Part shown: piece after piece, positions 13,612 through 60,161 of the stretch
How positions within the stretch are numbered: position 1 is the first letter of the stretch
How the letters are laid out: every line of letters begins with the position of its first letter
DNA from: a bacterium
GTDB lineage: Bacteria; UBA8248
Direction of reading: 5' to 3'
Length of the DNA: 64,000 nt
NCBI GenBank assembly: GCA_022825065.1
Contig: JAJDYR010000022.1
Location: 97,021 to 161,020 of the forward strand
Notes under the pieces: model-generated
What the model was told of the DNA's origin: nothing
Databases searched by the model: none
Seen by the model: the letters and a program-made list of their open reading frames with translations, nothing else
Program-made: the position numbers and the translations under genes

Positions 13612-13612
13612 C

Positions 13613-14149
13613 CTAAAAACCCTCTAACACGAGGCTCACGAGGTCTTCCGACAGTGAGTCGGCTGCTTGTTGATTGGCGTTCGAGCGGTTTGCGTCGCTT
13701 CGCGCGATGGATGAGGAAACCGCGAATTCGGCATAAGACTCCATATCCTGATTGATGAGCAATTTCCCCCGCTCTTTGTCACGCAGCCGTATGCGGGTGC
13801 GCACAACGACACGATACTGCAAAGCCCTGTCAGTCCGGGTGAACCCAATCGGCGAGAGACGATACTCGCGTAAAACGCCTTCGAGAGCGACGTCCGCATC
13901 GGGGGAGCCGGAAACCCGGAGGCGACCGTCCCGCAGGAACCTTCCTCTCACCGCTTTCGTGACGGCGCGCCCCAGGCCCGGCTCGTTCGTCTGGTTCAGG
14001 AATGGTGGTATCGAAATCGTTCGAACGTCTTTCAGGTTCCCGGGGCGAAGCGTTCCCTCAAGATCGTAGCCGCAGCCCGCCGCCAGGAAAACGATTAGCA
14101 GGAGTGAGAAACGGAGCGTGCGAATCATCCTCATAAGCACCCCACTCAA
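13613..14149 (-). CDS. lptE: LPS-assembly lipoprotein LptE (RlpB)
   Basis: Lipobox 'LLLIVFLAAGCGYDL'. Sits immediately upstream of holA. Confidence 0.65.
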   Translation of the reverse strand: MSGVLMRMIRTLRFSLLLIVFLAAGCGYDLEGTLRPGNLKDVRTISIPPFLNQTNEPGLGRAVTKAVRGRFLRDGRLRVSGSPDADVALEGVLREYRLSPIGFTRTDRALQYRVVVRTRIRLRDKERGKLLINQDMESYAEFAVSSSIARSDANRSNANQQAADSLSEDLVSLVLEGF

Positions 14150-14700
14150 ATGAAGACCTCCAGGGAGAGTTCCCGGTTTTTCACGCTGCTGAAAGCAATT
14201 TGCTCGCTCAGCGCGACCAACTCGTCATAATTCTCGTCATCCGGTTCGCAGACGAGAATATCGACATCCCAAGGGTTTCCGATGACGCCCCGTATCGCGC
14301 CGTTCATGATCTCCGTAGCCACAGGGGCGAAGCCGTCGGGGAGTTGCGCAAAGCCTGAAACCTCCAGCGACAAATTCTTCGCCGACGTCTTCATCATTCT
14401 TCCGAAAATCTCCTTCGCGCACCGGTAGAGCTTCGTCAGGGTCAAGTCCTCCAAAGAGCCGACTCCTGCGAACAAAACATATTCGGGCGCGAGTCGCCCT
14501 TTTGAAGCCAGCATGGCCTGGGATTCCCATACACCGCTCAATTTGCCTTGTTGCACCAGGCGGCTCGCCTCGTTCTCCAGCAAGCGATCGATCGCTTCCA
14601 ACCGCCCCTGAAACGGAAAATCTTCCACCGCGAACATGGAAACGGCGGCGAAGCTCTTCACCTCGTGCAATCCCCGAGGAAGCAAGCGAAGGCGAATCAC
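14146..14700 (-). CDS. Hypothetical protein resembling a standalone N-terminal domain of M17 leucyl aminopeptidase (PepA-N-like). No catalytic domain.
   Basis: 'QGKLSGVWESQAMLASKGRLAPEYVLFAGVGSLEDLTLTKLYRCAKEIFGRMMKTSAKNLSLEV' fits the Peptidase_M17_N pattern '...G..GE.L.L......rVLLVGLGk..eLT.e.lRraaa.a.r.l...ak...v.l'. Start overlaps the nusB stop. Confidence 0.4.
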   Translation of the reverse strand: MIRLRLLPRGLHEVKSFAAVSMFAVEDFPFQGRLEAIDRLLENEASRLVQQGKLSGVWESQAMLASKGRLAPEYVLFAGVGSLEDLTLTKLYRCAKEIFGRMMKTSAKNLSLEVSGFAQLPDGFAPVATEIMNGAIRGVIGNPWDVDILVCEPDDENYDELVALSEQIAFSSVKNRELSLEVFI

Positions 14701-14701
14701 C

Positions 14702-15118
14702 CTAGACCGCCATTTTCTCTTGATGGAGACGATCCAGAATGCCGTTCACGAATCCGGGCGCATTCTCTGGTCCATACCGCTTGGCCAGGCGAATGGCTTC
14801 ATCCATCGTAACCGCAGGCGGGATATCCGGCAGGAAATACATTTCGCAAACGCCCAGGCGCAAGATGCTCCTCGATACAGAATCCATGCGTTCGAGCGAC
14901 CAACTCGCGCTCGCTTCGGTGAGTATATCGTTAATCTGCCGGTTTTTCTCCAGCATGATCGCCATCAACCTGTCGGCGAACTTTTTTGAACTCTCGCTCG
15001 CCGGATGCAACCGCCAATAACGCTCGACTTCTTCCGGTGTCAGACTTCCGATGCGATCCGTATGATAGAGGATTTGAAACGCAAGCTCTCGCCCTCCCCT
15101 TCTGTTCTCGACCATCAC
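14702..15118 (-). CDS. nusB: Transcription antitermination factor NusB
   Basis: '[15 protein letters not shown]...', '[38 protein letters not shown]'. 138 aa. Confidence 0.85.
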
Positions 15119-25793: not shown

Positions 25794-27044
25794 TCATCCA
25801 CTGAACAATCGTTTCTTCACCGCGTCGAGTGAATGGACGCGCCCCGCTCGAGCCAGTTCTTCGGAAAAACCGACCGCCGGTTTTCTCCGCCCCCCCTCGC
25901 CGCCGCGAACCATTTCCCAGAGGGCGGCCAACCCGCCCGGCCGTTTCGGCGGCGTCAGATTCTCTCCGTCGAAATCCGCCATGGCGAACGGAACGGCATC
26001 GGCGATCCATTCCTGGGATTCCACGCTGAACCCATGATCCACCATCACGAGGATGCGGCAAGGCTGGTCCAGTTTTTCCAGCAACGACGACATCAGCGCG
26101 GCATCGAATCTCTCGATGGCCCCGATTTTCTCCTCGGGTTCGCGCCACGGGGATATGCTGTCCACATCCTCGAGCAGGAAGACGAAATCATGGCTCGAAA
26201 GCGCCTCGCTCACCCTGGCGGACACCTCCTCCCCCGGCTCATATACATCCGCGCCCCCCAGTTTGGCAAAGCCCTTTGCGAGTTGCGAGTCGGTTATCAG
26301 CGCCGAATCCCTGCCCCCCGTCTTTTCGGACATTCTCCCCACCTCCTCGTGGAGGCCGCCGCCCCAAAGCCACACGGAGTTCGCAGCGAACATACGGGTT
26401 TGCGCCTTTTCCCTCAAACCCGCATGCGTGGAAAGCACCATCTGGGAATCGTTGACGAAATGCACGAAGCGCCGCGCCGCCTCCGCCACCGGCATGTGCT
26501 CCCCGATGGGCATTCCGGTAATCGCATGCGGGGGCGAGAAGCCACGAAAGGATTCCGGTGAAAGCGGCGCGCCCGCACGCCGATAATAGAGAAGCGCCTC
26601 GCAGCCGCCCAGGGGTTCGAAACGGAAAGATTCGCCCTCATCGGGCGGCATGTGGCGCTCCAGATAAGCTATGAGTTCGCGGTTCTCCTCATCCGTGACG
26701 CCGAAGCCCGTCGGGTCCAGCATGACGACGCTCGTCGCGCCGGGCTTCAAGCACACGAAGTTGAGCCGGAAGACCGCTTCACCGGCTTCGGGGAGAACGT
26801 CCGCTGCGGCAGCCAGCATCAGGCCGGAGGAGAGTGCGCCCGAGGAGCCGAAAAAATGATTCAGAAACCCGTCCAGCGAGGGATACGCATCATCGGCTGC
26901 GGGAGACCACGCGCCGGAAAAGCCCGAACCCGCCACCCGATCCAGCACCGGCGTCCGCGCTCTTTGCAGGGGTGTTTCGCCCCCAAAATCCGCCACCGGC
27001 CTGTCGGCGAAACCGCGCGCGAGAACCACAAGGATTTTTCGCAT
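25794..27044 (-). CDS. Cofactor-independent phosphoglycerate-mutase-like metalloenzyme (archaeal-type ApgM family). Candidate non-orthologous homoserine kinase.
   Basis: 'MRKILVVLARGFADRPVADFGGETPLQRARTPVLDRVA' aligns to the ApgM N-terminus 'LILVGDGMADRP..LGGKTPLQ.AKTPNMD'. Sandwiched between lysC and hom. Confidence 0.65.
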   Translation of the reverse strand: MRKILVVLARGFADRPVADFGGETPLQRARTPVLDRVAGSGFSGAWSPAADDAYPSLDGFLNHFFGSSGALSSGLMLAAAADVLPEAGEAVFRLNFVCLKPGATSVVMLDPTGFGVTDEENRELIAYLERHMPPDEGESFRFEPLGGCEALLYYRRAGAPLSPESFRGFSPPHAITGMPIGEHMPVAEAARRFVHFVNDSQMVLSTHAGLREKAQTRMFAANSVWLWGGGLHEEVGRMSEKTGGRDSALITDSQLAKGFAKLGGADVYEPGEEVSARVSEALSSHDFVFLLEDVDSISPWREPEEKIGAIERFDAALMSSLLEKLDQPCRILVMVDHGFSVESQEWIADAVPFAMADFDGENLTPPKRPGGLAALWEMVRGGEGGRRKPAVGFSEELARAGRVHSLDAVKKRLFSG

Positions 27045-39524: not shown

Positions 39525-39693
39525 CGTCATCCTCTCACAAGAACCCTTCCATTCGTCCGGGCGAAGCCTATCACGAGCGGGCGAGAAGGCGAAGGAGAAC
39601 GGGGTTCTCGAATAAGTCATGATTTCGTGATTCGGTGAATGAAACTGACTAAGGAGGCTGTTGAACAAGCCCCTGAAAGGGAAACCCCATAAA

Positions 39694-39812
39694 GGCAACC
39701 CCCCCCTACCCCCCCTTGTCAGGGGGGTATAAAAAGGCGATGCGTCCTCGCCGGGCTGAGGGGGCTTTGCTTTTTCTTGCCCCCCTGACAAGGGGGGGTA
39801 GGGGGGGTTGCC
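39694..39812. repeat. Family-A MITE-like element, copy A1. The 33-bp terminal inverted repeats are GGCAACCCCCCCTACCCCCCCTTGTCAGGGGGG ... CCCCCCTGACAAGGGGGGGTAGGGGGGGTTGCC. The internal segment is inverted relative to copies A3-A5.
   Basis: Read directly. The internal segment 'tataaaaaggcgatgcgtcctcgccgggctgagggggctttgctttttcttg' is the reverse complement of the A4 internal segment. Confidence 0.8.
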
Positions 39813-39958
39813 TTTCGACCAGGGAGATCGGGGGTTTGCGCGATAGCGGTCTTCCCGCTAAAGGCAATATCTCCCGACGAGGACTTTTTCACCAACCCCG
39901 GAATGCGCGCGCGGCGCATTTTGATGTAGGATAGGCGTATTCCTTACATGGAGAGAAC

Positions 39959-42478: not shown

Positions 42479-42537
42479 CGGTGAGACCAACCCGCGCGTT
42501 TAGGGGCTGCTGACAGGTCCCTTTTTCGGGGGATAAA

Positions 42538-42640
42538 GGCACCCCCCCTACCCCCCCTTGTCAGGGGGGCAAGAAAAAACAAAACCCCTCAGCCCGGCGG
42601 TGGGCGTTGCCTTTTTATACCCCCGGACAAGGGGTTGTCG
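42538..42640. repeat. Family-A MITE-like element, copy A2 (right TIR degenerate/truncated)
   Basis: 'GGCACCCCCCCTACCCCCCCTTGTCAGGGGGGcaagaaaaaacaaaacccctcagcccggcgg...cctttttataCCCCCGGACAAGGGGTTG'. Confidence 0.7.
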
Positions 42641-42674
42641 AAAAAATCATCCTCGGTCGGAAATGACCACTGCC

Positions 42675-42812
42675 GTCATTCCGGCGAAAGCCGGAATCCA
42701 TTTTATCGCAGAATGACAATACCCTGGCTTTTCATTTCTCTGTCATTGGCGAGAATCAATCAGGAAATAAAAACAAAGGCAAAAAATGGATTCCGGCTTT
42801 CGCCGGAATGAC
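42675..42812. repeat. Family-B TIR element, copy B1. TIRs are GTCATTCCGGCGAAAGCCGGAATCCATT ... AATGGATTCCGGCTTTCGCCGGAATGAC. It translates as 'VIPAKAGIH' in spurious ORFs.
   Basis: Read directly. The internal AT-rich segment is the reverse complement of the B3 internal segment. Confidence 0.8.
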
Positions 42813-42899
42813 GAACAAAACCGCCCTGTCTCGTCGGGGCAGGCGGTATTGGGGGTTACGCGGCAGTCCCTCTTCCTACCCGCACGGATGGCCATAAAA

Positions 42900-45124: not shown

Positions 45125-45152
45125 TAGGGGCGGTTTGCGAACCGCCCCTACG
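45125..45152. repeat. Family-C REP-like palindrome GTAGGGGCGGTTTGCGAACCGCCCCTAC (copy C1). It abuts the left end of B2.
   Basis: Perfect 28-bp palindrome read directly. Related copies at 54489..54516 and 50769..50792. Confidence 0.75.
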
Positions 45153-45172
45153 GGCGGATGCGGTTTTGATCG

Positions 45173-45307
45173 TCATTCCGGCGAAAGCCGGAATCCATTT
45201 GCGGATGCGGGTGAATGAACGGCGGCGTTTCATTCCCCGCCGATGCGCAAGAACCCTGACGAAAGGCAAAAAGCATAAAATGGATTCCGGCTTTCGCCGG
45301 AATGACG
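45173..45307. repeat. Family-B TIR element, copy B2
   Basis: Same 28-bp TIRs as B1 and B3, with a different internal segment. Confidence 0.8.
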
Positions 45308-50122: not shown

Positions 50123-50599
50123 ATGGTGGAATCCGTAGACAAGGAAGTGATGGCCAAACAGGAGCGCCGGGTGCGGGCGACGCGCGCGGAGGGCTGCCGG
50201 GTGGAGCTGAAAGCGCGCAAGCACGCCTTCGTCGCCGATGAACCGGCGCAGGGCGGCGGGACCGACACGGGCCCCACGCCGCGCGAACTGGCGCTCGGCG
50301 CGCTTTCCGCCTGCATCACGGTCATCACGAACAAGGTGGCCGAGGGGCTCGACTTCAACGTCATCGCCCAGGAGGTGGAGGTGCGCGGCACGGCCGACCC
50401 CCGGGGCGCCAAGGACCCGGACAACGGCATCAGCCCGAACTTCGATTACGTGGAGGCGAAAATCCACCTGACCACGGACGAGCCCGAGGAGCGGGTGGCC
50501 GAACTCAAGCGCCAGCACCACGGGCGCTGCCCCATCTCCGCGCTCTACCGCGAGAGCGGCTGCGAACTCGTGGAGGAGTGGATCGTCAAGCGGCCGTGA
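50123..50599 (+). CDS. OsmC/Ohr-family peroxiredoxin-like protein
   Basis: 'GGGTDTGPTPRELALGALSACITV...HGRCPISALY' (the two conserved Cys). Confidence 0.75.
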   Translation: MVESVDKEVMAKQERRVRATRAEGCRVELKARKHAFVADEPAQGGGTDTGPTPRELALGALSACITVITNKVAEGLDFNVIAQEVEVRGTADPRGAKDPDNGISPNFDYVEAKIHLTTDEPEERVAELKRQHHGRCPISALYRESGCELVEEWIVKRP

Positions 50600-50616
50600 G
50601 GGGGGAAGTCCGCGCC

Positions 50617-50666
50617 GAAGGCGTCACCTTTACCCCCCTGACAAGGGGGGGGCCAGGGGGGTTGCC
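50617..50666. repeat. Family-A solo right half (right TIR plus the adjacent internal segment)
   Basis: 'gcgtcacctttACCCCCCTGACAAGGGGGGGGCCAGGGGGGTTGCC'. Confidence 0.6.
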
Positions 50667-50836
50667 TTTCAAGGGCGATGGTTTTCCGTGTACCCGCCCC
50701 TGCGGGTTCGTTTTAATTTGCGTGGTTTTTGTAGAAGCCGTTCGTGAACGGCCCTCCCCAGAAAAAGCGGGCGGTTCTCGAACCGCCCCTACGAAACCCG
50801 CAAACCCTGCCGGTTGCCGATACGCGCGCGGCGTAA

Positions 50837-50902
50837 GGACAACCCCTCGTGGTTGTCCCTTGCAGAAGGGGTCTTCGGACAGGCACGGTGGTCTGTCCCT
50901 AC
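50837..50902. repeat. Paired REP-like palindromes: family E1 (GGACAACCCCTCGTGGTTGTCC, 50837-50858) followed by family D1 (GGACAGGCACGGTGGTCTGTCCCTAC, 50877-50902)
   Basis: Read directly. The same E-then-D order recurs at 56943-57018. Confidence 0.7.
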
Positions 50903-50980
50903 AAACGAGAAAAGTTTTCGTTCGTCATTCCGGCGTCGGAGCCAACCAGTGCGGGGTTGTTGAAAAAGCCTTTACCAAAG

Positions 50981-51098
50981 GAGCACCCCCCCCTACCCCC
51001 CTTGTCAGGGGAGTAAGAAAGAGCAAACCCTCCACCACAGCGGCGAGGGGCGATGCCTTTTTTTACCCCCCTGACAAGGGGGGGTAGGGGGGGTTGCC
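50981..51098. repeat. Family-A MITE-like element, copy A3
   Basis: 'GAGCACCCCCCCCTACCCCCCTTGTCAGGGGAGtaagaaagagcaaaccctcc...gatgcctttttttACCCCCCTGACAAGGGGGGGTAGGGGGGGTTGCC'. Confidence 0.8.
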
Positions 51099-51377
51099 TT
51101 TCCATCCGAAAGGGGCTTCTCCTCTACCCTTGGCAAGGGGTCTTTTTAACAGCCCCGACGAGGGACGTCGCAGATAGAGCCGAAGGTTCGCCACCGACAT
51201 TGTAGGGGCCGCATACATGCGGCCCGGCCTTTCGCCGACAAAACACGGGTCGCATATATGTGTGGGGCGGCCCCGATGAGGGGCCGCCACCTACAGACCA
51301 CTACGAAGGTCGGTGGCCAGAATGGCGGGGCACGGCGAGCCTGGAGGCGGAGCGGGGCGCGAGAGAAACCTACGAGT

Positions 51378-51931: not shown

Positions 51932-52612
51932 ATGCCGGCCGAATCCCTCATCCTCTTCGCCAAACCGCCCCTCGCAGGCCGGGTGAAGACGCGCCTCGCC
52001 CAAAGCCTCGGGCGCGAGGGGGCCGCGCGTCTTTACGCGTGTTTCCTGAAAGACGCAGCCGAGACGGCGCGCTCGCTCAGCGATGCGAGGCCAAGCGCCG
52101 GCCTCGTCTGCGAGTGGACGCTGGAGCAAGGCGAATCGCCCGATGAGTTTCCGCTCACCGACTGGCTGCCCGGCGCCTTTCTCCACCGAATGCAGACGGG
52201 CGCCGACCTGGGGATGCGCATGGCGGCGGCCCTGGGCCGATGCCTGGCTTTCGGGAGACGGGCTGTGCTCATCGGCACGGATTTCCCGGATCTGCCGCAC
52301 GAGGTTCTGATAGACGCGTTCGAGAAGCTGGATTGCGGGGATGAGCCTACCGTCGCGCTCGGGCCCGCTGCGGACGGGGGTTACTACCTGATCGGGATGA
52401 ACCGGTTCGTCCCGGAAATTTTCACCGGCATCCCCTGGAGCACGGGCGAGGTGTTCCCGCGCACGATGGAGAAAGCCGCCGCACTCGGCGTCGGGACTGC
52501 CCTCCTTCCCGAGTGGCGCGACGTGGACGAGGCGGATGATCTGGAGGCGCTCAAGGGCCGCCTCTCGCAGGACGCCTCACGCGCCCGGCACACGCGGGAC
52601 TTTCTTGGCTGA
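51932..52612 (+). CDS. DUF2064 / TIGR04282-family protein (predicted glycosyltransferase-like)
   Basis: 'LILFAKPPLAGRVKTRLAQSLG...AVLIGTDFPDLP...GPAADGGYYLIGM'. Confidence 0.6.
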   Translation: MPAESLILFAKPPLAGRVKTRLAQSLGREGAARLYACFLKDAAETARSLSDARPSAGLVCEWTLEQGESPDEFPLTDWLPGAFLHRMQTGADLGMRMAAALGRCLAFGRRAVLIGTDFPDLPHEVLIDAFEKLDCGDEPTVALGPAADGGYYLIGMNRFVPEIFTGIPWSTGEVFPRTMEKAAALGVGTALLPEWRDVDEADDLEALKGRLSQDASRARHTRDFLG

Positions 52613-52691
52613 GCTACATTCTGTATTGCGCTGAATCCTTGGAGGTGAAAGGATTGCACGTCTAAGTCCGCCGAAAGATGAGGAGCACGCA

Positions 52692-53321
52692 TTGCCGAAC
52701 GAAACCGTCGTAGAAGCCACCTATACCTATTGCGTCCACTGAGCCTGGTGTCTCATCGCGACCGGGCGGTTGCGAACACTGAGCGAGCAGGCGGGCGGGC
52801 GCCTCGCCATCCGCTACCGCGCCTTTCTGCTCTCGCCCGAGCCGGACCACCGTCCGGCCCGCAAGGAGGCCATCATGGGCCACTGGGCGATGGCGAAAAG
52901 CCACCCCGGCGGCGAGGCGATCAACCCCGAACTCATGGCGCGCCGCGAATTTCCTTATCCTCATTCCACGCCGGGCGCGGTCGCCATCAAGGCATTCGCC
53001 GCCCAGCTCCCCGAGTGCGAGGGCGAGTATCTCGAAGCCGTGGAGCGAACGCATCTGGTCGAGTGCCTGAGCATCGACGACGCCGGCGTGCTCGTGGCCG
53101 CCGCCGAGCGGCTGGGGGCGGAGCCCGCGATGATGCGCGAGGTCATGGCCGACCCGGATATGGAAAAGCGCGTGTGGGCGGATCACGTCGAGGCCGTGAA
53201 CGCAGGCATCCAGTCCACGCCCACGGTCGATTTTGCCGGCAAATACAGGATCACAGGCGCGCAGCCCATGGCCATATTCGAGCAAACTTATGAGCGCGCC
53301 CTGGCCGATCAGGACACCTAA
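52692..53321 (+). CDS. DsbA/FrnE-like thiol-disulfide oxidoreductase, predicted selenoprotein. In-frame TGA (Sec) at 52740-52742 in a U-A-W-C redox motif. TTG start after GAGGAG. 209 aa including Sec.
   Basis: The frame is open from 52635 through the TGA into the tracked ORF 52770..53321. 'ETVVEATYTYCVH[U]AWCLIATGRLRTLSEQAGGRLAIRYRAFLLSP' aligns to the FrnE 'SDVVCPWCYIGKRRLE...VEVRWRPFELNP', with TGA at the first Cys. The C-terminal 'GIQSTPTVDFAGKYRITGAQPMAIFEQ' matches the DsbA-family 'GVxGVPTFVIxGKYxISGAQP'. Confidence 0.6.
52752..52783 (+). promoter_or_regulatory. Candidate bacterial SECIS stem-loop beginning 10 nt after the in-frame UGA. It has a 4-bp lower stem (CUCA/UGAG), a 7-bp upper stem (CGCGACC/GGUUGCG, including one G-U pair) and a GGGC apical loop about 22-25 nt past the UGA.
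   Basis: Base-pairing worked out by hand from 'ctcatCGCGACCgggcGGTTGCGaacactgag'. Confidence 0.4.
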
Positions 53322-53328
53322 ACCCACT

Positions 53329-54225
53329 ATGCGAGAAGGCGGCCGGGCTGCAAGAATAGTCGCCGCTCTGGCGGCCCTCCTGGTGCTTGCGGGCTGCGCG
53401 AACATCCGCGCCCTCTTCCTGCCCAAAGAAGAGAAGAAACCGGCGCTCGAAACAAAACGGCCACGGATGAAAAAACCCGAAGAGCCGCATTTTTTCCGCG
53501 TCCTGACGCTTCCCACTTACGACATGGCGAAAGAAGCGTATGACAAGACGGCCATCCTCGGGATCCCCTTCCGCAAGGTGGCCCTCGAGTTCAGGGATAA
53601 AGCGACGTCCATCCGCAAGGCCGAGCCCTCGGAGTTCAGCGTCGGCGTCCGGGCCGAGGTGCAGGATTTGAAACTCGGGGGGACGTCGAGAATCATCGAG
53701 TCGGACGAGGGGTTTTCCATCCTCCAGAAAACGACGAGCGCGCATTACGAACGCGCCCTCAAGCTCATGGAGAAGAAAAAAGACGAGGCCGCCCTCGAAC
53801 TCATCCGCCGCGACCTCGAGATCAACCCCGGAAATGTGGACGCCTGGCTCGCCCTGGCGAAGATGATGGACGAGGCGGGTGATCTGGAGGAGACGCTCGC
53901 CGCGTACGGGAAGGCCCGCGAACTCGACCCCGAGAACCCGGTCGTCTCCAACAGGTACGCCAGATACCTGGTCTCCCAGTACCGCTACGAAGAGGCGGAG
54001 AAGGTGCTCAAGGCGGCGGAGGAATTATCACCCGAAGACACGGGCGTGCTCCTGAACCTCGCCTCCCTGCTCGTCTACCTGAACAAGGAGCCGGACTTCG
54101 CCTCGCGCCTCATCGAGCGCGGCTCCAGAATCGACCCCGGCCGCCCGGAATGGTACCGCCTCTCGGGCGTGATTCAGAAACGAAGGGAACTCGGCATCGC
54201 GCCGAAAGCGAAGGGGGTGAATTAG
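53329..54225 (+). CDS. TPR-repeat lipoprotein. Lipobox 'LLVLAGC'. Start at internal ATG 53329, 7 nt after the DsbA-like stop.
   Basis: 'MREGGRAARIVAALAALLVLAGCANI', TPR-like 'NVDAWLALAKMMDEAGDLEETLAAYGKARELDPENPVV'. Confidence 0.5.
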   Translation: MREGGRAARIVAALAALLVLAGCANIRALFLPKEEKKPALETKRPRMKKPEEPHFFRVLTLPTYDMAKEAYDKTAILGIPFRKVALEFRDKATSIRKAEPSEFSVGVRAEVQDLKLGGTSRIIESDEGFSILQKTTSAHYERALKLMEKKKDEAALELIRRDLEINPGNVDAWLALAKMMDEAGDLEETLAAYGKARELDPENPVVSNRYARYLVSQYRYEEAEKVLKAAEELSPEDTGVLLNLASLLVYLNKEPDFASRLIERGSRIDPGRPEWYRLSGVIQKRRELGIAPKAKGVN

Positions 54226-54343: not shown

Positions 54344-54484
54344 GTCATTCCGGCGAAAGCCGGAATCCATTTGTTTTGCCTTTGTTTTTTATTTCCTGAT
54401 TTCTTCCCGCCAATGACGAGGAAATGAAAAGCCGGCGTATTGTCATTCTGCTTTAGAATGGATTCCGGCTTTCGCCGGAATGAC
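54344..54484. repeat. Family-B TIR element, copy B3 (inverse orientation relative to B1). Immediately followed by the family-C palindrome C2 (54489-54516).
   Basis: TIRs identical to B1. The internal segment is the reverse complement of the B1 internal segment. Confidence 0.8.
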
Positions 54485-54602
54485 GGCTGTAGGGGCGGAT
54501 CGCGAACCGCTCCTACGGGTCGAACCCGACCGGAGAAGAGCCGCCCCAAAAACCCTCCTGGCAGAAGGGGTAAAAACCGCGGCGCGGCCTCTCGCCTGGA
54601 AA

Positions 54603-54719
54603 AGCAACCCCCCCTACCCCCCCTTGACAGGGGGGCAAGAAAGAGCAAAACCCCCTCGGCCCGGCAGGGCGCATCGCCTTTTTTTACCCCCCTGACAAGG
54701 GGGGGTAGGGGGGGTTGCT
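54603..54719. repeat. Family-A MITE-like element, copy A4
   Basis: 'AGCAACCCCCCCTACCCCCCCTTGACAGGGGGGcaagaaagagcaaaaccccctcggcccggcagggcgcatcgcctttttttACCCCCCTGACAAGGGGGGGTAGGGGGGGTTGCT'. Confidence 0.8.
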
Positions 54720-54918
54720 TTTACCTCCTGATGAAAAGGGGGCTTTTTCAAAGGCCCTTCTTCAGCCAGCCGACCCCTCCTTCCTCGTTCGCGTCAAACC
54801 CTCCTTCCACACTCGCGTTCGACCCCTTGGCTCCCCGCGCATGAATGCGTCATAATGCCGCCGTTCTTAAACCGCGCGAACTTACACAGAAGAACACCAA
54901 ATCATAGAGGGTATACGC

Positions 54919-56271: not shown

Positions 56272-56296
56272 GGGGACGCCCCCCTCGGCTTGAAAA

Positions 56297-56478
56297 CCAA
56301 CCCCCCCTACCCCCCCTTAACAGGGGGGCAAAAAAGACCGACTCCCCGGCAAGTGGGGGATATGAAAAAGACGACGCCCGCCGCCGGGCGGAGAGGCTTT
56401 GCTTTTTTCTGCCCGCCGCCGGGCTAGGGGGTTTGCTTTTTCTTGCCCCCCTGACAAGGGGGGGTAGGGGGGGTTGCC
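56297..56478. repeat. Family-A MITE-like element, copy A5 (about 180 bp; internal insertion)
   Basis: Both 33-bp TIRs intact. The internal segment is about 60 bp longer than in A3 and A4. Confidence 0.8.
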
Positions 56479-56942
56479 TTTGTCCCCTCACAAGGATGAC
56501 TTTCTCAACAGCCCCGCATGTATGCCCGACCCCGCAAAAACCGTTCTCTCGTTCCACTCATATGCAAACCGACTCCTGCTTCCTTCGTAATCGACTCCGC
56601 AATTGCCCGCATTTGCGCTTGCCGGAAGCCGGTCGCGACCGGCCTGGCAGCGGCATTCTCCTCTTGTTGGCGTTCCAGCCCCCGATATCCACTCGATATG
56701 CGAACTTCGCGTTTGGGGCGGACACACAGGTCCGCCCCTACAAAAGCGCAAACCCTCATTCATCAGCACTTTATCAACAGCCCCTCAAGGAGGGAGTTGA
56801 CTTCAAAAACGTGCGCTCCACCAAAATCGCTCCACGAGACTTGTTCAACACCCCCGAGGAGGGAATGTTCGCCGGAATGACGAACAAAACCGCACCGCCT
56901 CGCAAGGGGCTGTTGAAAAACCTTCGTGATGGTTTTGCAGCA

Positions 56943-57212: not shown

Positions 57213-58028
57213 ATGAGTTTTCCGAGTTGGAAGAGCACGCTGGAGCGGATGGCGGAGCATCTCACCGCCCTGCTCCCCGGCGCCGTGGCTGCTGTCGGAC
57301 TGCTGCTCGTAGGCTGGCTCATGGCGAGCCTGCTGCGCATGCTGACCAGAAAGCTGGTCGTCGCGGTCATCGCGCGTATCAACACGCACTTTCGACACAC
57401 CGAGGGCCTGCTTGGAACACGCATGACCGAAGATGCCCCACGAGTCGTGGGAGCATTCGTGTATTGGGTTGTCCTTCTGTTTTTCCTGGCGGCGGCGATA
57501 GAAAAGCTGCCCCTGCCGATCGTGACCAGCGCGCTGCAAAGTATCGCCTACTACGTGCCGAAAATCCTCCTGGCGGTCGTGATTGTCTTCATCGGACTTG
57601 GCGCGGGCACCGTGGCCAACCGATGGACGGCGCGGGTCGCTGCGGCGGCAGGCGTGGAGTTCGCTCCGGCGCTCGGTCGGATCGCCCAGGTCGCTATTCT
57701 CATTGTGGCGCTGAGCGTCGGCTCGCAGGAGATCGGCCTGGAAAGCGAATTTTTCACCGCCACGATTCTCATTGTGCTGGCCACTATCCTGGGAGGGCTT
57801 GCGCTGGCCTTCGGGCTGGGTTCCAGCCCGGTCGTGACGAATATCATGGCCTCCTACTACGCAGCTCAGGTCTATCGCGTAGGCGACGTCGTACGCGTAG
57901 GAGACATCGAGGGCACCGTACGGGAGATCAGGACGGTGTGCATCGTGCTCGACACTGCCGACGGTCAAGTCCACCTGCCGGCCAGGAAGTATTGCGATGA
58001 TATTTCGATCGTGTCGAGGAAAGAGTAA
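57213..58028 (+). CDS. Small membrane protein related to MscS mechanosensitive channels. Has conserved-TM-helix repeats and a short MscS beta-domain-like segment, and is much shorter than canonical MscS.
   Basis: Several TM helices, then 'QVYRVGDVVRVGDIEGTVREIRTVCIVLDTADGQVHLP', which resembles the start of the MscS beta domain. 271 aa. The stop overlaps the next start (TAATG). Confidence 0.45.
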   Translation: MSFPSWKSTLERMAEHLTALLPGAVAAVGLLLVGWLMASLLRMLTRKLVVAVIARINTHFRHTEGLLGTRMTEDAPRVVGAFVYWVVLLFFLAAAIEKLPLPIVTSALQSIAYYVPKILLAVVIVFIGLGAGTVANRWTARVAAAAGVEFAPALGRIAQVAILIVALSVGSQEIGLESEFFTATILIVLATILGGLALAFGLGSSPVVTNIMASYYAAQVYRVGDVVRVGDIEGTVREIRTVCIVLDTADGQVHLPARKYCDDISIVSRKE

Positions 58029-58864
58029 TGCAGACCCCGCTCCGGGCCATGGCCCAACTCCACGTGGACCGCCACCCCGAGGAAGCCGCGCGAGTATTGG
58101 AAAACCTCCCTCCAGGCGAAATCGCAGCCGTCCTGCAGAAAGCGTCGGCCAATGGCGCCGCAGGCGTCCTGGCCTGCCTCGCCCCTGGCCTGGCGAGCAT
58201 GTGCCTGGCCCACTGCCCTGAAAGAGAGCGCTCAGCGGTCGTAGGTTTACTCCCGACACGCACTGCCGCTGCGCTGCTGCGCCAACTGGAACCGGGCGTC
58301 CGGGACGAAACGCTCCGCGCTCTTCCGGAGTCCGACCGGGCGCGGCTCAGCCGGGTCCTGAGTTATCCGGCTCAGTCAGCCGGAGCATTCGCGGACCCCT
58401 CCGTCCTCACCCTCCACGCCGATCTGACGGTAGAAGAGGCCCTGAGCCGCCTCAGCCAAAGTCAGGGTCCGGTCGCCGGCCGCATCTTCGTCCTCGATCG
58501 CTCCCAGCGCCTTGTCGGCGCCGTGACGCCGGGTCAGTTGCTCACGAGCCGTCGCGGCGCGCCCCTCGCATCTCTGGACCTGGGCCCGGCCCATGCGGTC
58601 GTGGACCGCGCCAGCGCTGCGGCGCTGCGGGCCACATCTGCAGAACCGCTTGCCGTGGTGGACCCGCAGGGCGTATTCGTGGGCGCCATCGGCGACGACG
58701 TCCTGCCCCGCCTCGAGCCGCAGCGGCAACGCCCGACAGTCGCTCACTTCGTCGCCGCGGCAGGCGAAATGTACTGGCTCGGATTTCGGGAGATACTGAT
58801 CGGCTTGTGTTCCGGTTCCCGTTCAGCCGAGCCGCCAGGAGAAATGCCCCGTGCCGACTCCTGA
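58028..58864 (+). CDS. Soluble MgtE-N-domain / CBS-pair protein (the MgtE cytoplasmic regulatory module without a membrane domain)
   Basis: 'HPEEAARVLENLPPGEIAAVLQKAS...' MgtE_N-like, then 'LTVEEALSRLS...RIFVLDRSQRLVGAVTPGQLL' CBS-like. No TM segments. 278 aa. Overlaps mgtE by 14 bp. Confidence 0.55.
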   Translation: MQTPLRAMAQLHVDRHPEEAARVLENLPPGEIAAVLQKASANGAAGVLACLAPGLASMCLAHCPERERSAVVGLLPTRTAAALLRQLEPGVRDETLRALPESDRARLSRVLSYPAQSAGAFADPSVLTLHADLTVEEALSRLSQSQGPVAGRIFVLDRSQRLVGAVTPGQLLTSRRGAPLASLDLGPAHAVVDRASAAALRATSAEPLAVVDPQGVFVGAIGDDVLPRLEPQRQRPTVAHFVAAAGEMYWLGFREILIGLCSGSRSAEPPGEMPRADS

Positions 58865-60161
58865 CCTCAGTACGGAACGCCTGCTGACCGAGAATTTTTT
58901 TACCCGCCATCCCGAACAGGCTGCGGATCAACTCGAAATGGCGACATCTTCCGAGGCAGCCGGGATTCTCGCTCAGCTCACCCCGAGGATCGCGAGCGTC
59001 GCCTTTCGCCGTGTGGCGCCAGCCAAGGCTCTGGACATTCTGCTCGAGATTGACCGCGAACATGCCAGACAACTCCTCCGTGATCTCGACCCGCCCCAAG
59101 CCGGCGCCCTGCTCAGCGGCCTGAGCGAAGAGGAGCGCCGGGAGCTGCTGGCCGGTCTGGCGCCGTCCGAGTCCAGAGTGCTGCAATCCCTCATGCAGTA
59201 TCCCGAAGACAGCGCCGGGCGGCTGATGGACCCCCGAATCGCCATCTTCCGGCCCGGCATCACGGCCGGGGAGGCGTTGGAGCGGTTGCGCTCGATGAAG
59301 CCGGGGAGGCGTTTCTTTGACCTGCTGCTCGTTGACGAGACAGGGCGTCTGTCCGGAAGCGTTCCGTTGCACCAGGCCGTGCTGGCCGAACCGGACACCA
59401 TGCTGACCGAATTGATAGCAGGTCCGCCACTTGCCGTGTCGGCTTTCGCCACGCGGGAAGAGGTCGTCGCCACCCTGGAGCTTCAACGGCTGGCCAACAT
59501 CCCCGTGATCGACTACAACGACAAGCCGATCGGGAGTATTCGGCTCGCCGAGCTGGTGTCTGCGGTTGAAACCGAAATCAGCGCCAATCTGGTCAGCGTC
59601 ACCGGCGCCAGCAAGGAAGAGCGCGCCCTGTCGACCGTCGGCTTTGCGGTGCGCAAGCGCCTGCCGTGGCTGCAGCTGAATCTGCTCACCGCCTTTTTGG
59701 CCGCATCGGTGGTCGGCCTTTTCGAAGACACCATTGCCCGGTTCACCGCCCTGGCCGTTTTGTTGCCTGTAGTGGCCGGGCAGTCGGGCAACACCGGTGC
59801 GCAAGCGCTGGCCGTTGTACTGCGCGGGCTGACCCTTCGTGAAATCACGCTTCGGCACTGGGCGCGGGTCGTGTTCAAGGAGTTCTCGACGGGACTGATA
59901 AACGGCCTGGGAGTCGCATTGGTCACCTGTGCGGGGGTGTACGTGTGGAGCGGCTCGACCGGAATTGTGCTCGTCATCGGCGTCGCCATGGTGTTATCGA
60001 TGGCGATAGCCGGCGTGGCCGGCGCCCTGATCCCGATATTGCTGTCGATGCTGGGCCAGGATCCGGCCCAGTCCTCCTCCATCGTCCTGACCACCGTTAC
60101 CGACGTTTTCGGTTTCTTCAGCTTTCTTGGCCTGGCGGTTGTGTTTTCTTCTTACCTATGA
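58851..60161 (+). CDS. mgtE: Magnesium transporter MgtE (N domain + CBS pair + 5-TM channel domain)
   Basis: 'HPEQAADQLEMATSSEAAGILAQL', CBS region, C-terminal TM domain 'LAVLLPVVAGQSGNTGAQALAVVLRGL...DVFGFFSFLGLA'. 436 aa. Confidence 0.85.
   Translation: MPTPDLSTERLLTENFFTRHPEQAADQLEMATSSEAAGILAQLTPRIASVAFRRVAPAKALDILLEIDREHARQLLRDLDPPQAGALLSGLSEEERRELLAGLAPSESRVLQSLMQYPEDSAGRLMDPRIAIFRPGITAGEALERLRSMKPGRRFFDLLLVDETGRLSGSVPLHQAVLAEPDTMLTELIAGPPLAVSAFATREEVVATLELQRLANIPVIDYNDKPIGSIRLAELVSAVETEISANLVSVTGASKEERALSTVGFAVRKRLPWLQLNLLTAFLAASVVGLFEDTIARFTALAVLLPVVAGQSGNTGAQALAVVLRGLTLREITLRHWARVVFKEFSTGLINGLGVALVTCAGVYVWSGSTGIVLVIGVAMVLSMAIAGVAGALIPILLSMLGQDPAQSSSIVLTTVTDVFGFFSFLGLAVVFSSYL

What the first reader, a model, noticed from the sequence alone, without database searches (positions are those of the whole stretch)
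52635..53321. DsbA/FrnE-like oxidoreductase with an in-frame UGA at the first Cys of CPWC: candidate selenoprotein, mis-called as a truncated TTG-start ORF
The +frame carrying the tracked ORF 52770..53321 (a clear DsbA-family C-terminus, 'GIQSTPTVDFAGKYRITGAQP') is open for a further 135 nt upstream, across a single TGA at 52740-52742. Translating through that TGA gives 'TYTYCVH-U-AWCLIATGRLRTL...LAIRYRAFLLSP'. This aligns residue-for-residue with the FrnE/DsbA N-terminus '...CPWCYIGKRRLE...VEVRWRPFELNP', and the TGA sits exactly where the nucleophilic Cys of CPWC belongs, giving a U-x-x-C motif. Selenocysteine replacing the N-terminal Cys of a thioredoxin-fold CxxC is the classic selenoprotein signature. 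A GAGGAG + 6 nt + TTG start (52692) is present. A hand-folded hairpin starts 10 nt after the UGA (52752-52783; 7-bp upper stem including one G-U pair, GGGC loop about 24 nt past the UGA, GGUUGC in the 3' arm), at the distance expected for a bacterial SECIS. Without Sec read-through the CxxC motif would be missing entirely, which argues against a simple pseudogene.
Basis: partly seen in the sequence, partly recalled or inferred. Interest (0 to 1): 0.8.

Follow-up and report, generated by a model that had tools for sequence, protein, structure and literature searches.

The report
Mis-annotated DsbA-like selenoprotein gene
This is a real gene for a cytoplasmic DsbA/FrnE-type redox enzyme whose active-site cysteine is replaced by selenocysteine encoded by an in-frame UGA; it belongs to a selenoprotein family known since 2005, so its main value is to correct an annotation error found in all public copies.

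Summary
The + frame is open from TTG 52692 to TAA 53319-53321, apart from one TGA at 52740-52742. The TTG follows GAGGAG with a 6-nt spacer. The 209-aa read-through product is a full-length DSBA-domain protein.

- **Conservation:** the TGA and its flanks (YTYCVH-U-AWC) are kept in all 22 related GTDB species representatives found (49-95% aa identity) and in 7 further assemblies. Selection is purifying on both sides of the TGA.
- **Position:** in Cys homologues the first Cys of CxxC sits exactly at this codon. In a wider metagenome sample the same codon is TGA in 31 loci and TGT/TGC in 46.
- **SECIS:** an 8-bp hairpin with a GGGC loop (52756-52775, -12.6 kcal/mol) starts its loop 21 nt after the UGA. 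It meets every published bacterial SECIS rule. It has the lowest synonymous variation in the gene and shows compensatory pairs. Equivalent hairpins occur in Sec forms and mostly not in Cys forms.

"DsbA-like, UxxC" is already a catalogued selenoprotein family, so this is a new member of a known kind. One small twist is that this clade has Cys and His at -3 and -1 (C-x-H-U-x-x-C), where relatives have Asp and Leu. The Sec machinery could not be checked, because the window holds none and the rest of the genome was out of reach.

The parts
52680..52685 (+). Shine-Dalgarno-like GAGGAG, 6 nt before the start codon
   Evidence: Read directly. A purine-rich GA(T)GAGGA block is kept in orthologues.
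52692..52694 (+). TTG start codon of the full-length gene
   Evidence: It is the only canonical start in frame between stop 52632-52634 and the TGA. TTG is present at the aligned start position in 20 of 23 orthologues, and those 20 show no synonymous variation even though Leu has 6 codons.
52692..53321 (+). Full coding sequence of the DsbA/FrnE-like selenoprotein (209 aa plus stop, Sec at residue 17)
   Evidence: Pfam DSBA PF01323 scores 45.1 bits (cut-off 25.6) over residues 15-200 of the read-through product. All 23 orthologous read-through ORFs are intact, with a single internal TGA.
52731..52739 (+). Codons Cys14-Val15-His16. The clade-specific Cys at -3 and His at -1 replace the family's Asp and Leu.
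   Evidence: Cys14 and His16 are invariant in 23/23 orthologues. Cys homologues have (S/H)-D-x-x-C.
52740..52742 (+). In-frame UGA, read as selenocysteine (U17). This is the nucleophilic position of the UxxC motif.
   Evidence: TGA in 23/23 orthologues. It aligns with the first Cys of CxxC in Cys homologues. The same codon is TGA in 31 and TGT/TGC in 46 wider-family loci.
52749..52751 (+). Cys20 codon (TGT), the resolving Cys of U-A-W-C
   Evidence: Invariant column C20 in alignment A6. It is Cys in 22 of 23 orthologues; L023 has Arg.
52756..52775 (+). SECIS core hairpin UCGCGACC-GGGC-GGUUGCGA. The loop is at 52764-52767 and starts 21 nt after the UGA.
   Evidence: -12.6 kcal/mol, z = -3.4. 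It meets the bSECIS rules. It has the lowest synonymous codon diversity of any 7-codon window in the gene (0.10 against 0.30, p = 0.005). Pairs 22:31 and 23:30 change on both sides, and the covariation score exceeds 500/500 shuffles and all slid controls.
52743..52792 (+). Possible extended lower stem of the SECIS in this sequence (GCCUG/CAGGC and CUCA/UGAG). It is not conserved.
   Evidence: MFE fold of 52740-52800 is -27.6 kcal/mol, but z is only -1.5. The lower pairs are not kept in orthologues.
53220..53222 (+). Codon of Pro177 (S-T-P-T-V), the presumed cis-proline loop of the thioredoxin fold that faces the active site
   Evidence: Invariant column in A3 (P160 of the truncated numbering) and nearly invariant in A6. 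The role is assigned from general knowledge of thioredoxin-fold proteins.
52770..53321 (+). The mis-called truncated ORF (183 aa, TTG start inside the 3' arm of the hairpin)
   Evidence: Public gene calls for orthologues start at different places and give 148, 149, 177, 180, 183-186, 188 and 189 aa. The NCBI calls begin 'MATGRL', which implies an ATC start.
51932..52612 (+). Upstream gene, probably co-transcribed: a TIGR04282/DUF2064 glycosyltransferase-like protein that ends in a normal TGA stop
   Evidence: NCBIfam TIGR04282 scores 177 bits (cut-off 134). Synteny is kept in all loci. No terminator-like site lies between the genes on the + strand.
53329..54225 (+). Downstream gene, 7 nt after the stop: a TPR-repeat lipoprotein (signal peptide ending in the lipobox LAGC)
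   Evidence: Pfam TPR families. The N-terminus MREGGRAARIVAALAALLVLAGC was read. Synteny is kept.

Best explanation
Window 52692-53321 (+) encodes a 209-residue cytoplasmic thiol/selenol-disulfide oxidoreductase of the FrnE-like branch of the DsbA family (PF01323, COG2761). The N-terminal, nucleophilic Cys of the CxxC active site is selenocysteine.

Translation starts at TTG 52692. When the ribosome reaches UGA 52740, the hairpin 52756-52775 in the mRNA acts as a bacterial SECIS. It has an 8-bp stem and a GGGC loop 21 nt downstream, and it recruits SelB-GTP-Sec-tRNA(Sec). Sec17 is inserted instead of terminating. The enzyme then presumably cycles between a selenol/thiol state and a Sec17-Cys20 selenenylsulfide to reduce or isomerise disulfides in substrates. 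Pro177 is presumed to be the cis-Pro loop completing the active site.

**Shown here:**
- the in-frame UGA and its conservation;
- its equivalence to the active-site Cys;
- purifying selection on both sides of the UGA;
- a constrained hairpin that meets the SECIS rules.

**Inferred:**
- actual Sec insertion;
- the catalytic cycle;
- cytoplasmic location (no signal peptide; beta-strand 1 starts at about residue 5);
- co-transcription with the TIGR04282-like gene upstream and the TPR lipoprotein gene downstream.
For: - **Sequence and frame:**
- **Domain:** DSBA domain over residues 15-200 of the read-through product. A profile of the family matches the FrnE structures 5CNW/5CP1 at E = 1.2e-28 over nearly the full length.
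- **Conservation of the UGA:** the TGA and its flanks are kept in L001-L007 (L008 has AWR for AWC) and in 22/22 GTDB species representatives down to 49% identity. Every read-through ORF is otherwise intact.
- **Selection:** synonymous changes occur upstream of the UGA (CAC/CAT, TAT/TAC, ACC/ACG/ACT/ACA). dN/dS is 0.24 upstream and 0.16 downstream.
- **Cys/Sec equivalence:** Cys homologues place Cys at the UGA column. In the wider family the codon is TGA in 31 loci and TGT/TGC in 46, sometimes between near-identical sequences.
- **Hairpin:** it meets all four published bSECIS constraints. Synonymous sites are most constrained there and compensatory pairs are present.
- **Hairpin tracks Sec:** rule-satisfying hairpins occur in 21/31 Sec forms against 8/46 Cys forms. 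The other 10 Sec loci collapse to 5 distinct sequences, and 4 of those fold into a similar hairpin with a slightly weaker stem or a bulge. Median local MFE is -10.2 against -5.3 kcal/mol, p = 8e-6.
- **Standard code:** TGA is an ordinary stop for neighbouring Pfam-verified genes, so the genetic code is standard.
- **Lineage:** orthologues are labelled Nitrospinota/Nitrospinae MAGs. BSepDB lists MAGs with such names, placed in GTDB phylum UBA8248, with 48-54 selenoprotein genes each (PMC13326102). SelA and SelB are common in sponge-symbiont bins (PMC5649159).
Against: - No selA, selB, selD or tRNA-Sec lies in the 64-kb window, and the rest of the genome could not be searched. The Sec machinery in this organism rests on literature about similarly named MAGs. 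The link between this window and GTDB phylum UBA8248 was not tested.
- No Rfam family matches, although Rfam has no general bacterial SECIS model for such hairpins.
- Within the close clade the hairpin hardly varies, so covariation comes from only a few sequences of a sister subfamily. The Sec-versus-Cys statistics are not corrected for phylogeny.
- Part of the nucleotide conservation also reflects the conserved peptide IATGRLR.
- There is no experimental evidence of Se incorporation.
- Two lineages (L008, L023) have Arg in place of the resolving Cys.
Confidence: 0.9

Rival explanations
1. Pseudogene: a nonsense mutation hit the active-site Cys codon (TGC/TGT to TGA is one step), and the rest is decaying or is only called as an ORF by chance.
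For: TGC/TGT to TGA needs a single substitution. Gene callers treat the locus as truncated. One assembly (L008) has a C-terminal frameshift and an AWR motif.
Against: The same TGA is present in 23/23 species-level orthologues, which differ by up to about 50% in protein sequence, with no second stop or frameshift. dN/dS is well below 1 on both sides of the TGA. A constrained hairpin sits at the SECIS distance. The Sec/Cys alternation with hairpin gain and loss in the wider family is the usual selenoprotein pattern.
Confidence: 0.03
2. A shorter functional protein starts downstream of the TGA, as annotated (TTG 52770 or a nearby codon). It would be a DsbA-fold protein without a CxxC motif, and the upstream stretch would be untranslated leader.
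For: This is what all public annotations assume. Some family members have lost an active-site Cys; for example, P0049 has S at the first position.
Against: The 16 codons between TTG 52692 and the TGA evolve as coding sequence in the same frame. They encode beta-strand 1 and the active-site turn, which the Pfam model and the FrnE profile both cover. The annotated starts are inconsistent among orthologues (implied ATC, TTG, or ATG 35 codons further on) and have no conserved SD. TTG 52770 lies in the 3' arm of the hairpin. A product lacking strand 1 and the helix-1 N-terminus would probably not fold as a thioredoxin domain (general knowledge).
Confidence: 0.04
3. The UGA is decoded, but not as Sec. 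It could be stop-codon read-through by a near-cognate tRNA (Trp or Cys) or a lineage-wide reassignment of UGA.
For: The conservation data show only that translation continues through the UGA. They do not show which residue is inserted.
Against: UGA ends many verified genes in the window, including the gene immediately upstream, so there is no reassignment. The codon alternates specifically with Cys codons at a redox-active position and is followed by a rule-conforming SECIS hairpin that is lost in Cys forms. That pattern is specific to Sec. The family is already catalogued as a selenoprotein family.
Confidence: 0.03

Closest known systems
DsbA-like selenoprotein, form 1 (UxxC; PF01323 / COG2761). 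First reported from the Sargasso Sea metagenome (Zhang, Fomenko & Gladyshev 2005, PMC1088965) and listed in the 2026 review PMC13188914.
   Same: - Same Pfam domain.
- Same UxxC motif, with Sec at the N-terminal Cys position.
- A bacterial SECIS hairpin immediately downstream.
- Widespread Cys homologues.
   Different: This clade reads C-V-H-U-A-W-C, whereas the relatives sampled here read (F/Y/W)-(H/S)-D-x-x-[C/U]-x-W-C. The family's conserved Asp at -3 is Cys and the residue at -1 is His. All 24 members of this clade that I saw are Sec forms, and no Cys-form counterpart with C-x-H-C appears among the fetched proteins, which include the top 150 representatives. I could not compare directly with the published representative (NIP15863.1), so I do not know whether it is of this subtype.
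FrnE of Deinococcus radiodurans (PDB 5CNW, 5CP1), a cytoplasmic DsbA-family disulfide isomerase/reductase
   Same: - It is the best solved relative by family profile (E = 1.2e-28, chain residues 11-223).
- It has no signal peptide.
- It has a CPWC-type motif at the same position.
- It has a helical insertion domain and the V/T-P cis-Pro loop.
   Different: - Sequence identity is low: the single-sequence search gives only E = 0.003.
- FrnE has Cys, not Sec.
- FrnE is 260 aa and has a C-terminal tail beyond residue 223 that has no counterpart here. From my own knowledge, that tail carries a second CxxxxC redox motif.
- The window protein is therefore FrnE-like in fold but is not an orthologue.
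Classical periplasmic DsbA (E. coli DsbA, CPHC)
   Same: Thioredoxin fold with an inserted helical domain, and the Pfam DSBA family.
   Different: - The window protein has no signal peptide; strand 1 starts about 5 residues from the N-terminus.
- The dipeptide is A-W, not P-H.
- Only the C-terminal part matches solved DsbAs, and weakly (E about 1e-6).
- It is probably a cytoplasmic reductase or isomerase rather than a periplasmic oxidase (inference).
E. coli fdhF-type bacterial SECIS
   Same: A hairpin directly downstream of the UGA within the coding sequence. It has a small apical loop starting with GG/GU at about 20 nt from the UGA (rule set; hairpin).
   Different: The sequence is unrelated. 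No conserved bulged U is evident in the window's hairpin, although L010 may have one. SelB binding was not tested.

Membership tests
Bacterial selenoprotein gene (Sec-UGA with SECIS) | In-frame UGA at a position occupied by Cys in homologues | tested here: met
   Alignments A3 and A6 place the first Cys of CxxC at the UGA column. The same codon is TGA in 31 and TGT/TGC in 46 metagenome loci.
Bacterial selenoprotein gene (Sec-UGA with SECIS) | UGA and both flanks conserved as coding sequence in orthologues | tested here: met
   TGA in 23/23 orthologues and intact ORFs. dN/dS is 0.24 upstream and 0.16 downstream.
Bacterial selenoprotein gene (Sec-UGA with SECIS) | bSECIS rule set: apical loop of 3-9 nt, upper stem of 4-16 bp, G in the first two loop positions, 16-37 nt between the UGA and the loop, MFE at most -7.5 kcal/mol (PMC13188914) | tested here: met
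   Loop GGGC (4 nt), 8-bp stem, 21-nt spacing, -11.8 to -12.6 kcal/mol. bSECISearch itself was not available; I implemented the rules in a script.
Bacterial selenoprotein gene (Sec-UGA with SECIS) | RNA-level constraint or covariation on the hairpin | tested here: met
   The hairpin has the lowest synonymous diversity in the gene (p = 0.005). Two pairs show compensatory changes, and the covariation score exceeds 500/500 shuffles and all slid registers. The hairpin decays in Cys forms. The evidence is modest in amount, because few independent changes are available.
Bacterial selenoprotein gene (Sec-UGA with SECIS) | selA, selB, selD and tRNA-Sec (selC) in the same genome | not testable with these tools
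   None lies in the 64-kb window: there are 0 tRNAs and the Pfam scan of 41 ORFs found no Sel proteins. Literature only: MAGs labelled Nitrospinae/Nitrospinota and placed in UBA8248 have 48-54 selenoprotein genes, and SelA/SelB are common in sponge-symbiont bins.
Bacterial selenoprotein gene (Sec-UGA with SECIS) | Selenium actually incorporated (75Se labelling or mass spectrometry) | not testable with these tools
   This needs an experiment.
DsbA family, FrnE-like branch (PF01323 / COG2761) | DSBA domain above Pfam's gathering score, covering the active site | tested here: met
   45.1 bits against 25.6, residues 15-200 against profile positions 8-190 of 191.
DsbA family, FrnE-like branch (PF01323 / COG2761) | C/U-x-x-C at the start of helix 1 and a conserved Pro loop | tested here: met
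   U17-A-W-C20; Pro177 is an invariant or nearly invariant column.
DsbA family, FrnE-like branch (PF01323 / COG2761) | Conserved (S/H)-D at -4/-3 before the first Cys | tested here: not met
   The window clade has Y-C at -4/-3 and H at -1. Nearly all of the Cys homologues recovered with a C-x-[WFY]-C motif have Asp at -3.
FrnE orthologue (D. radiodurans type) | C-terminal tail with a second redox motif | tested here: not met
   The profile alignment ends at residue 223 of the 260-aa chain. The window protein ends ...ERALADQDT, with no Cys in its last 100 or so residues. The nature of the FrnE tail is from my own knowledge.
Periplasmic DsbA oxidase | N-terminal signal peptide and a CPHC-type motif | tested here: not met
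   The N-terminus MPNETVVEATYTY has no hydrophobic signal sequence, and the motif is U-A-W-C.

The most novel reading that the evidence does not exclude
The clade containing this gene is found only as Sec forms, in sponge-associated 'Nitrospinota'-labelled MAGs and a few relatives. It may be a functionally distinct subtype of DsbA-like selenoprotein with a three-residue C14-x-H16-U17-x-x-C20 centre. The extra Cys replaces the family's conserved Asp, and together with the His it could serve as an alternative resolving residue or as a ligand for a metal or metalloid. Three things hint at this. Two lineages keep an intact gene with Arg in place of Cys20. The gene is always next to a TIGR04282-type ('arsenosugar biosynthesis') glycosyltransferase-like gene. 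No Cys-only counterpart of the motif was found.
Probability: 0.15. Interest if true: 0.45.

Novelty: new member of a known kind. Interest (0 to 1): 0.27.

Why it matters
**Annotation.** Every public gene call I saw for this gene and its orthologues is truncated (148-189 aa, with arbitrary starts that include an implied ATC) and lacks the catalytic site. No NCBIfam model covers the family, so automatic pipelines will keep mis-calling it. Correcting the call restores a redox enzyme to the proteome of a sponge-associated lineage that is reported to be very rich in selenoproteins.

**Biology.** The gene adds one more well-supported Sec/Cys pair. The SECIS hairpin appears with Sec and decays in Cys forms, which is useful for training selenoprotein predictors. 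It does not change how Sec decoding or DsbA-family chemistry is understood.

Tried and rejected
- **Rfam:** the whole window at gathering threshold gave nothing. The region 52680-52860 at E up to 10 gave only a chance Acido-1 hit (13 bits against a gathering score of 50). This says little, because Rfam has no model for this kind of SECIS.
- I therefore searched with the post-UGA part only, and no 3D model of the C-x-H-U-x-x-C centre was made. align_proteins refuses a translation that contains a stop.
- **Over-diverse query:** The search for related loci with the 16-sequence alignment failed because it had no conserved stretch. I repeated it with closer sets.
- **Crude scan for other selenoprotein genes:** a first scan for in-frame TGAs with redox-like motifs was useless in this GC-rich DNA, giving 216 hits. 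A stricter scan found no second candidate.
- **In-frame ORF pairs:** apparent pairs separated by TGA at 25794, 27069 and 29633 on the minus strand are simply adjacent housekeeping genes.
- **Covariance model:** I considered building one from the sister subfamily's hairpins and dropped the idea. Those hairpins encode a similar peptide, so a hit would not be independent of protein homology, and the other subfamily's hairpin is in a different register.
- **Sec machinery by protein search:** I considered looking for SelA/B/D through the search for homologous proteins and matching contig lengths. I judged it unlikely to surface this lineage among thousands of closer hits, so I did not spend the search.
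- **L009:** the small DSBA ORF upstream in L009 is a truncated Cys-form paralogue and is not relevant.
Full report
**Observation**

The stretch 52400-53500 was read and translated. The frame that carries the mechanically called ORF 52770..53321 is open back to the stop at 52632-52634. Its only interruption is TGA 52740-52742. The translation reads ...DEEHA-L-PNETVVEATYTYCVH-*-AWCLIATGRLRTLSEQAGGRLAIRYRAFLLSP... and runs on to TAA 53319-53321.

GAGGAG lies at 52680-52685. Six bases later comes TTG 52692, which is the only ATG/GTG/TTG in frame between the upstream stop and the TGA. With Cys written at the TGA, the 209-aa product matches Pfam DSBA (PF01323) at 45.1 bits against a cut-off of 25.6. 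The match covers residues 15-200 and profile positions 8-190 of 191, so it spans the stop codon.

**Is it more than chance?**

I scanned both strands of the whole window for a particular combination. It required an in-frame TGA preceded by a start codon, a Cys/Ser/Thr redox-type spacing around the TGA, coding-like GC3 on both sides, and a downstream hairpin that obeys the published bacterial SECIS rules. Only this site and two sites antisense to Pfam-verified genes were returned.

**Conservation of the UGA**

A word-indexed search of 5.8 billion proteins found only truncated calls of 118-199 aa, all starting downstream of the TGA. I fetched the DNA for eight of these loci (L001-L008). All are syntenic, with the gene order COXG-like (minus strand), DUF2064, this gene, TPR lipoprotein, amidohydrolase. 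All eight carry the TGA; seven read ...YTYCVH-TGA-AWC and L008 reads AWR.

A scan of one genome per GTDB species found 22 loci with 49-95% protein identity. All 22 have TGA at that codon. The flanks are (Y/I/F)-x-C-V-H before it and (A/S)-W-C after it, except that L023 has AWR. All 23 read-through ORFs, the window included, are otherwise intact at 206-227 aa.

Upstream of the TGA there are synonymous changes: His CAC/CAT, Tyr TAT/TAC and Thr ACC/ACG/ACT/ACA. Pairwise Nei-Gojobori dN/dS among the 19 close orthologues is 0.24 for the 15 codons upstream and 0.16 for the body of the gene. The upstream segment is therefore translated in the same frame as the rest, which excludes both a pseudogene and a downstream start. 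TTG at 52692 is present at the aligned start position in 20 of 23 orthologues, and those 20 show no synonymous variation, as expected of a start codon.

**Equivalence to the active-site Cys**

An exhaustive HMMER search of 1.84 billion representatives, using the post-UGA part of the protein as query, gave 294 hits. Full-length hits read, for example, RITFFHDVL-C-AWC-YALSPRLRTLKEEF (P0028). In the alignments the first Cys of their CxxC falls exactly on the TGA column.

Two more distant truncated hits were traced to their DNA, and both have an in-frame TGA at that codon. L009 (38% identity) reads MSELRLDFYHDVL-TGA-VWC. L010 (47%) reads LTYFQCVH-TGA-AWC.

A metagenome scan with a sister-subfamily alignment returned 80 loci. 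Of the 78 that covered the site, the codon is TGA in 31, TGT/TGC in 46 and misaligned in 1. Sec and Cys forms sometimes differ by little else, for example L035 against L039, or L084/L099 against L090/L105. This Sec/Cys alternation is the hallmark of a selenoprotein family.

**The hairpin**

The core is UCGCGACC-GGGC-GGUUGCGA at 52756-52775. On its own it folds at -12.6 kcal/mol, with z = -3.4 and 1 of 200 shuffles as stable. The review PMC13188914 quotes four consensus rules, and all are met:

| Rule | Requirement | This hairpin |
|---|---|---|
| Apical loop | 3-9 nt | 4 nt |
| Upper stem | 4-16 bp | 8 bp |
| Loop start | G within the first two positions | GG |
| UGA-to-loop spacing | 16-37 nt | 21 nt |
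| MFE | at most -7.5 kcal/mol | -11.8 to -12.6 kcal/mol |

A longer fold that starts right after the UGA exists in the window sequence, but it is not conserved.

Across the 23 orthologues, the seven codons that form the hairpin have the lowest synonymous codon diversity of any seven-codon window in the gene. The value is 0.10 against a gene mean of 0.30, with permutation p = 0.005. Thr ACC, Arg CGG and Leu UUG are each invariant in 23 of 23. The one frequent change, GCG to GCA, converts a G-U pair into an A-U pair.

I then aligned the window clade without gaps against a sister subfamily whose hairpin is in the same register. The six-pair core is standard-paired in 94 of 96 cells. Pair 22:31 switches A-U to G-C in three sequences, and pair 23:30 switches C-G to G-C in two. 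The covariation score exceeds all 500 shuffles and every slid register.

A third subfamily has a hairpin of unrelated sequence, UAGCCUC-GGC-GAGGCUA, at the same distance of 20 nt.

Hairpins with a perfect stem that meet the rules occur in 21 of 31 Sec loci and 8 of 46 Cys loci. Three of those eight Cys loci are identical to Sec sisters. The other ten Sec loci collapse to 5 distinct sequences, and 4 of those fold into a similar hairpin with a weaker stem or a bulge. Over distinct sequences the local MFE has a median of -10.2 kcal/mol for Sec against -5.3 for Cys, with Mann-Whitney p = 8e-6, not corrected for phylogeny. Close Cys relatives of the GGC-loop type show a decayed stem (L049-L054).

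**What the protein is**

A profile of the family matches the solved FrnE structures of Deinococcus radiodurans (5CNW, 5CP1) at E = 1.2e-28 over chain residues 11-223. The next matches are SCO1869 (3GL5) and GK0824 (6GHB). Classical periplasmic DsbAs match only weakly and only in part.

The protein has no signal peptide, and the first beta-strand begins about five residues from the start. It lacks any counterpart of FrnE's C-terminal tail beyond residue 223. It is therefore a cytoplasmic, FrnE-like member of COG2761/PF01323, but not an FrnE orthologue. The invariant Pro177 in S-T-P-T-V fits the cis-Pro loop of the thioredoxin fold (the role is assigned from general knowledge).

**Context**

The window is a chromosomal housekeeping region. 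It carries MutS, MurJ, riboflavin biosynthesis genes, PPDK, several aminoacyl-tRNA synthetases, RecO, Era and ComEC. GC content is 60%.

The upstream gene is a TIGR04282-family glycosyltransferase-like protein (177 bits against a cut-off of 134). It ends in an ordinary TGA 80 nt before the TTG start. A TPR lipoprotein gene starts 7 nt after the stop. No terminator-like site separates the three genes on the + strand, so they probably form an operon (inference). TGA terminates many verified genes in the window, so the genetic code is standard.

**Sec machinery**

The window contains no tRNA and no SelA, SelB or SelD among the 41 ORFs scanned. The rest of the genome could not be reached with the tools available.

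The indirect evidence is as follows. NCBI labels the orthologous MAGs Nitrospinota or Nitrospinae bacterium, and several isolate names have the form typical of host-associated metagenome bins. BSepDB lists three MAGs with such names, placed in GTDB phylum UBA8248, among the ten most selenoprotein-rich bacteria, with 48-54 genes each (PMC13326102). One of them is bin107, from the sponge Aplysina aerophoba. Slaby et al. report SelA and SelB in most sponge-symbiont bins (PMC5649159). I did not verify that this window belongs to UBA8248.

**Comparison with what is known**

'DsbA-like protein, UxxC, COG2761' was reported as a selenoprotein family from the Sargasso Sea in 2005, with nine sequences and widespread Cys homologues (PMC1088965). 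The 2026 review lists it as 'DsbA-like protein form 1, PF01323, UxxC'. The finding is therefore a new, mis-annotated member of a known family.

NCBIfam has no model for this family. The best hit is a different thioredoxin-like (seleno)lipoprotein family, at 23.6 bits against a cut-off of 190. That may be why NCBI names orthologues 'DsbA family protein' and gives them the N-terminus MATGRL, which implies an ATC start.

**A clade-specific feature**

Where relatives have (S/H)-D-x-(L/A)-C, this clade has Y-C-V-H-U. The near-invariant Asp at -3 is Cys, and the residue at -1 is His. Both are invariant in 23 of 23 orthologues and in L010. No Cys-only version (C-x-H-C-x-x-C) was found among the fetched proteins, which include the top 150 representatives. 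Two lineages (L008, L023) have Arg in place of Cys20; in L023 the gene is otherwise intact. Whether Cys14 and His16 take part in catalysis or in ligand binding is open.

**Verdict**

In novelty it is a new member of a known kind, and its interest is modest at 0.27. Its value lies mainly in correcting the annotation and in providing a clean example of a SECIS hairpin that comes and goes with Sec/Cys switching.

Noticed in passing
window 39680-39822, 42522-42603, 50629-50671, 50966-51113, 54588-54729, 56281-56347, 56412-56495: An intergenic palindromic repeat family with core AACCCCCCCTACCCCCCCTTGTCAGGGGGGCAAGAAA. Copies often occur as inverted pairs 8-80 nt apart, which looks REP- or MITE-like. 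They fill the gaps that flank the COXG/DUF2064/DsbA-like/TPR block. They also produce the many spurious 'PPLTRGGRGGC' ORFs and the terminator-like hits.
   Followed up: partly
window 42669-42840, 45144-45200, 54374-54490, 56868-56908: A second dispersed repeat, with core AAATGGATTCCGGCTTTCGCCGGAATGACGAAC, present in both orientations in the same intergenic gaps.
   Followed up: no
L008:5866-5880 and L023:4998-5012: Two orthologues read U-A-W-R instead of U-A-W-C (TGC to CGC), so the resolving Cys is lost. L023 is otherwise intact, while L008 also has a C-terminal frameshift. Their close relative L022 keeps Cys. This could be early decay, or it could mean that Cys14 substitutes as the partner of Sec.
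   Followed up: partly
L035 vs L039; L084/L099 vs L090/L105; L045-L048 vs L049-L054: There are recent Sec/Cys switches within near-identical metagenome homologues. The youngest Cys forms still carry the intact SECIS hairpin, whereas slightly more distant Cys forms show a decayed stem. This gives a small natural series for how a SECIS decays once it is no longer needed.
   Followed up: partly
L002:4055-4342, L003:4015-4302, L004:4025-4312 (equivalent to window gap 50600-51377): Three orthologous loci carry a 95-aa GIY-YIG ORF between the OsmC and COXG genes. The window has only repeat elements at that position.
   Followed up: no
window 14146-14745 (-) and gap 13612-14145: This ORF matches only the N-terminal domain of M17 leucyl aminopeptidase. 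There is no room for the catalytic domain before the next gene, which encodes the DNA polymerase III delta subunit. It may be a truncated or degraded gene.
   Followed up: no
window 50123-50599 (+): The OsmC-family neighbour gives a sub-threshold hit to NCBIfam 'OsmC-related (seleno)protein' (57.5 bits against a cut-off of 95). It is a complete Cys-containing ORF with no in-frame TGA, so it is not a second selenoprotein gene.
   Followed up: yes
L009:2052-2889: Next to the Sec-form gene in L009 lies an 82-aa N-terminal fragment of a Cys-form FrnE-like paralogue (…YSDYVCPWCYVG…). It is followed by an unrelated 199-aa ORF with no Pfam match.
   Followed up: partly
window 58028-58864 and 58851-60161 (+): Two consecutive ORFs both carry MgtE_N and CBS domains, but only the second has the MgtE transporter domain. 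This may be a partial duplication or a regulatory paralogue.
   Followed up: no
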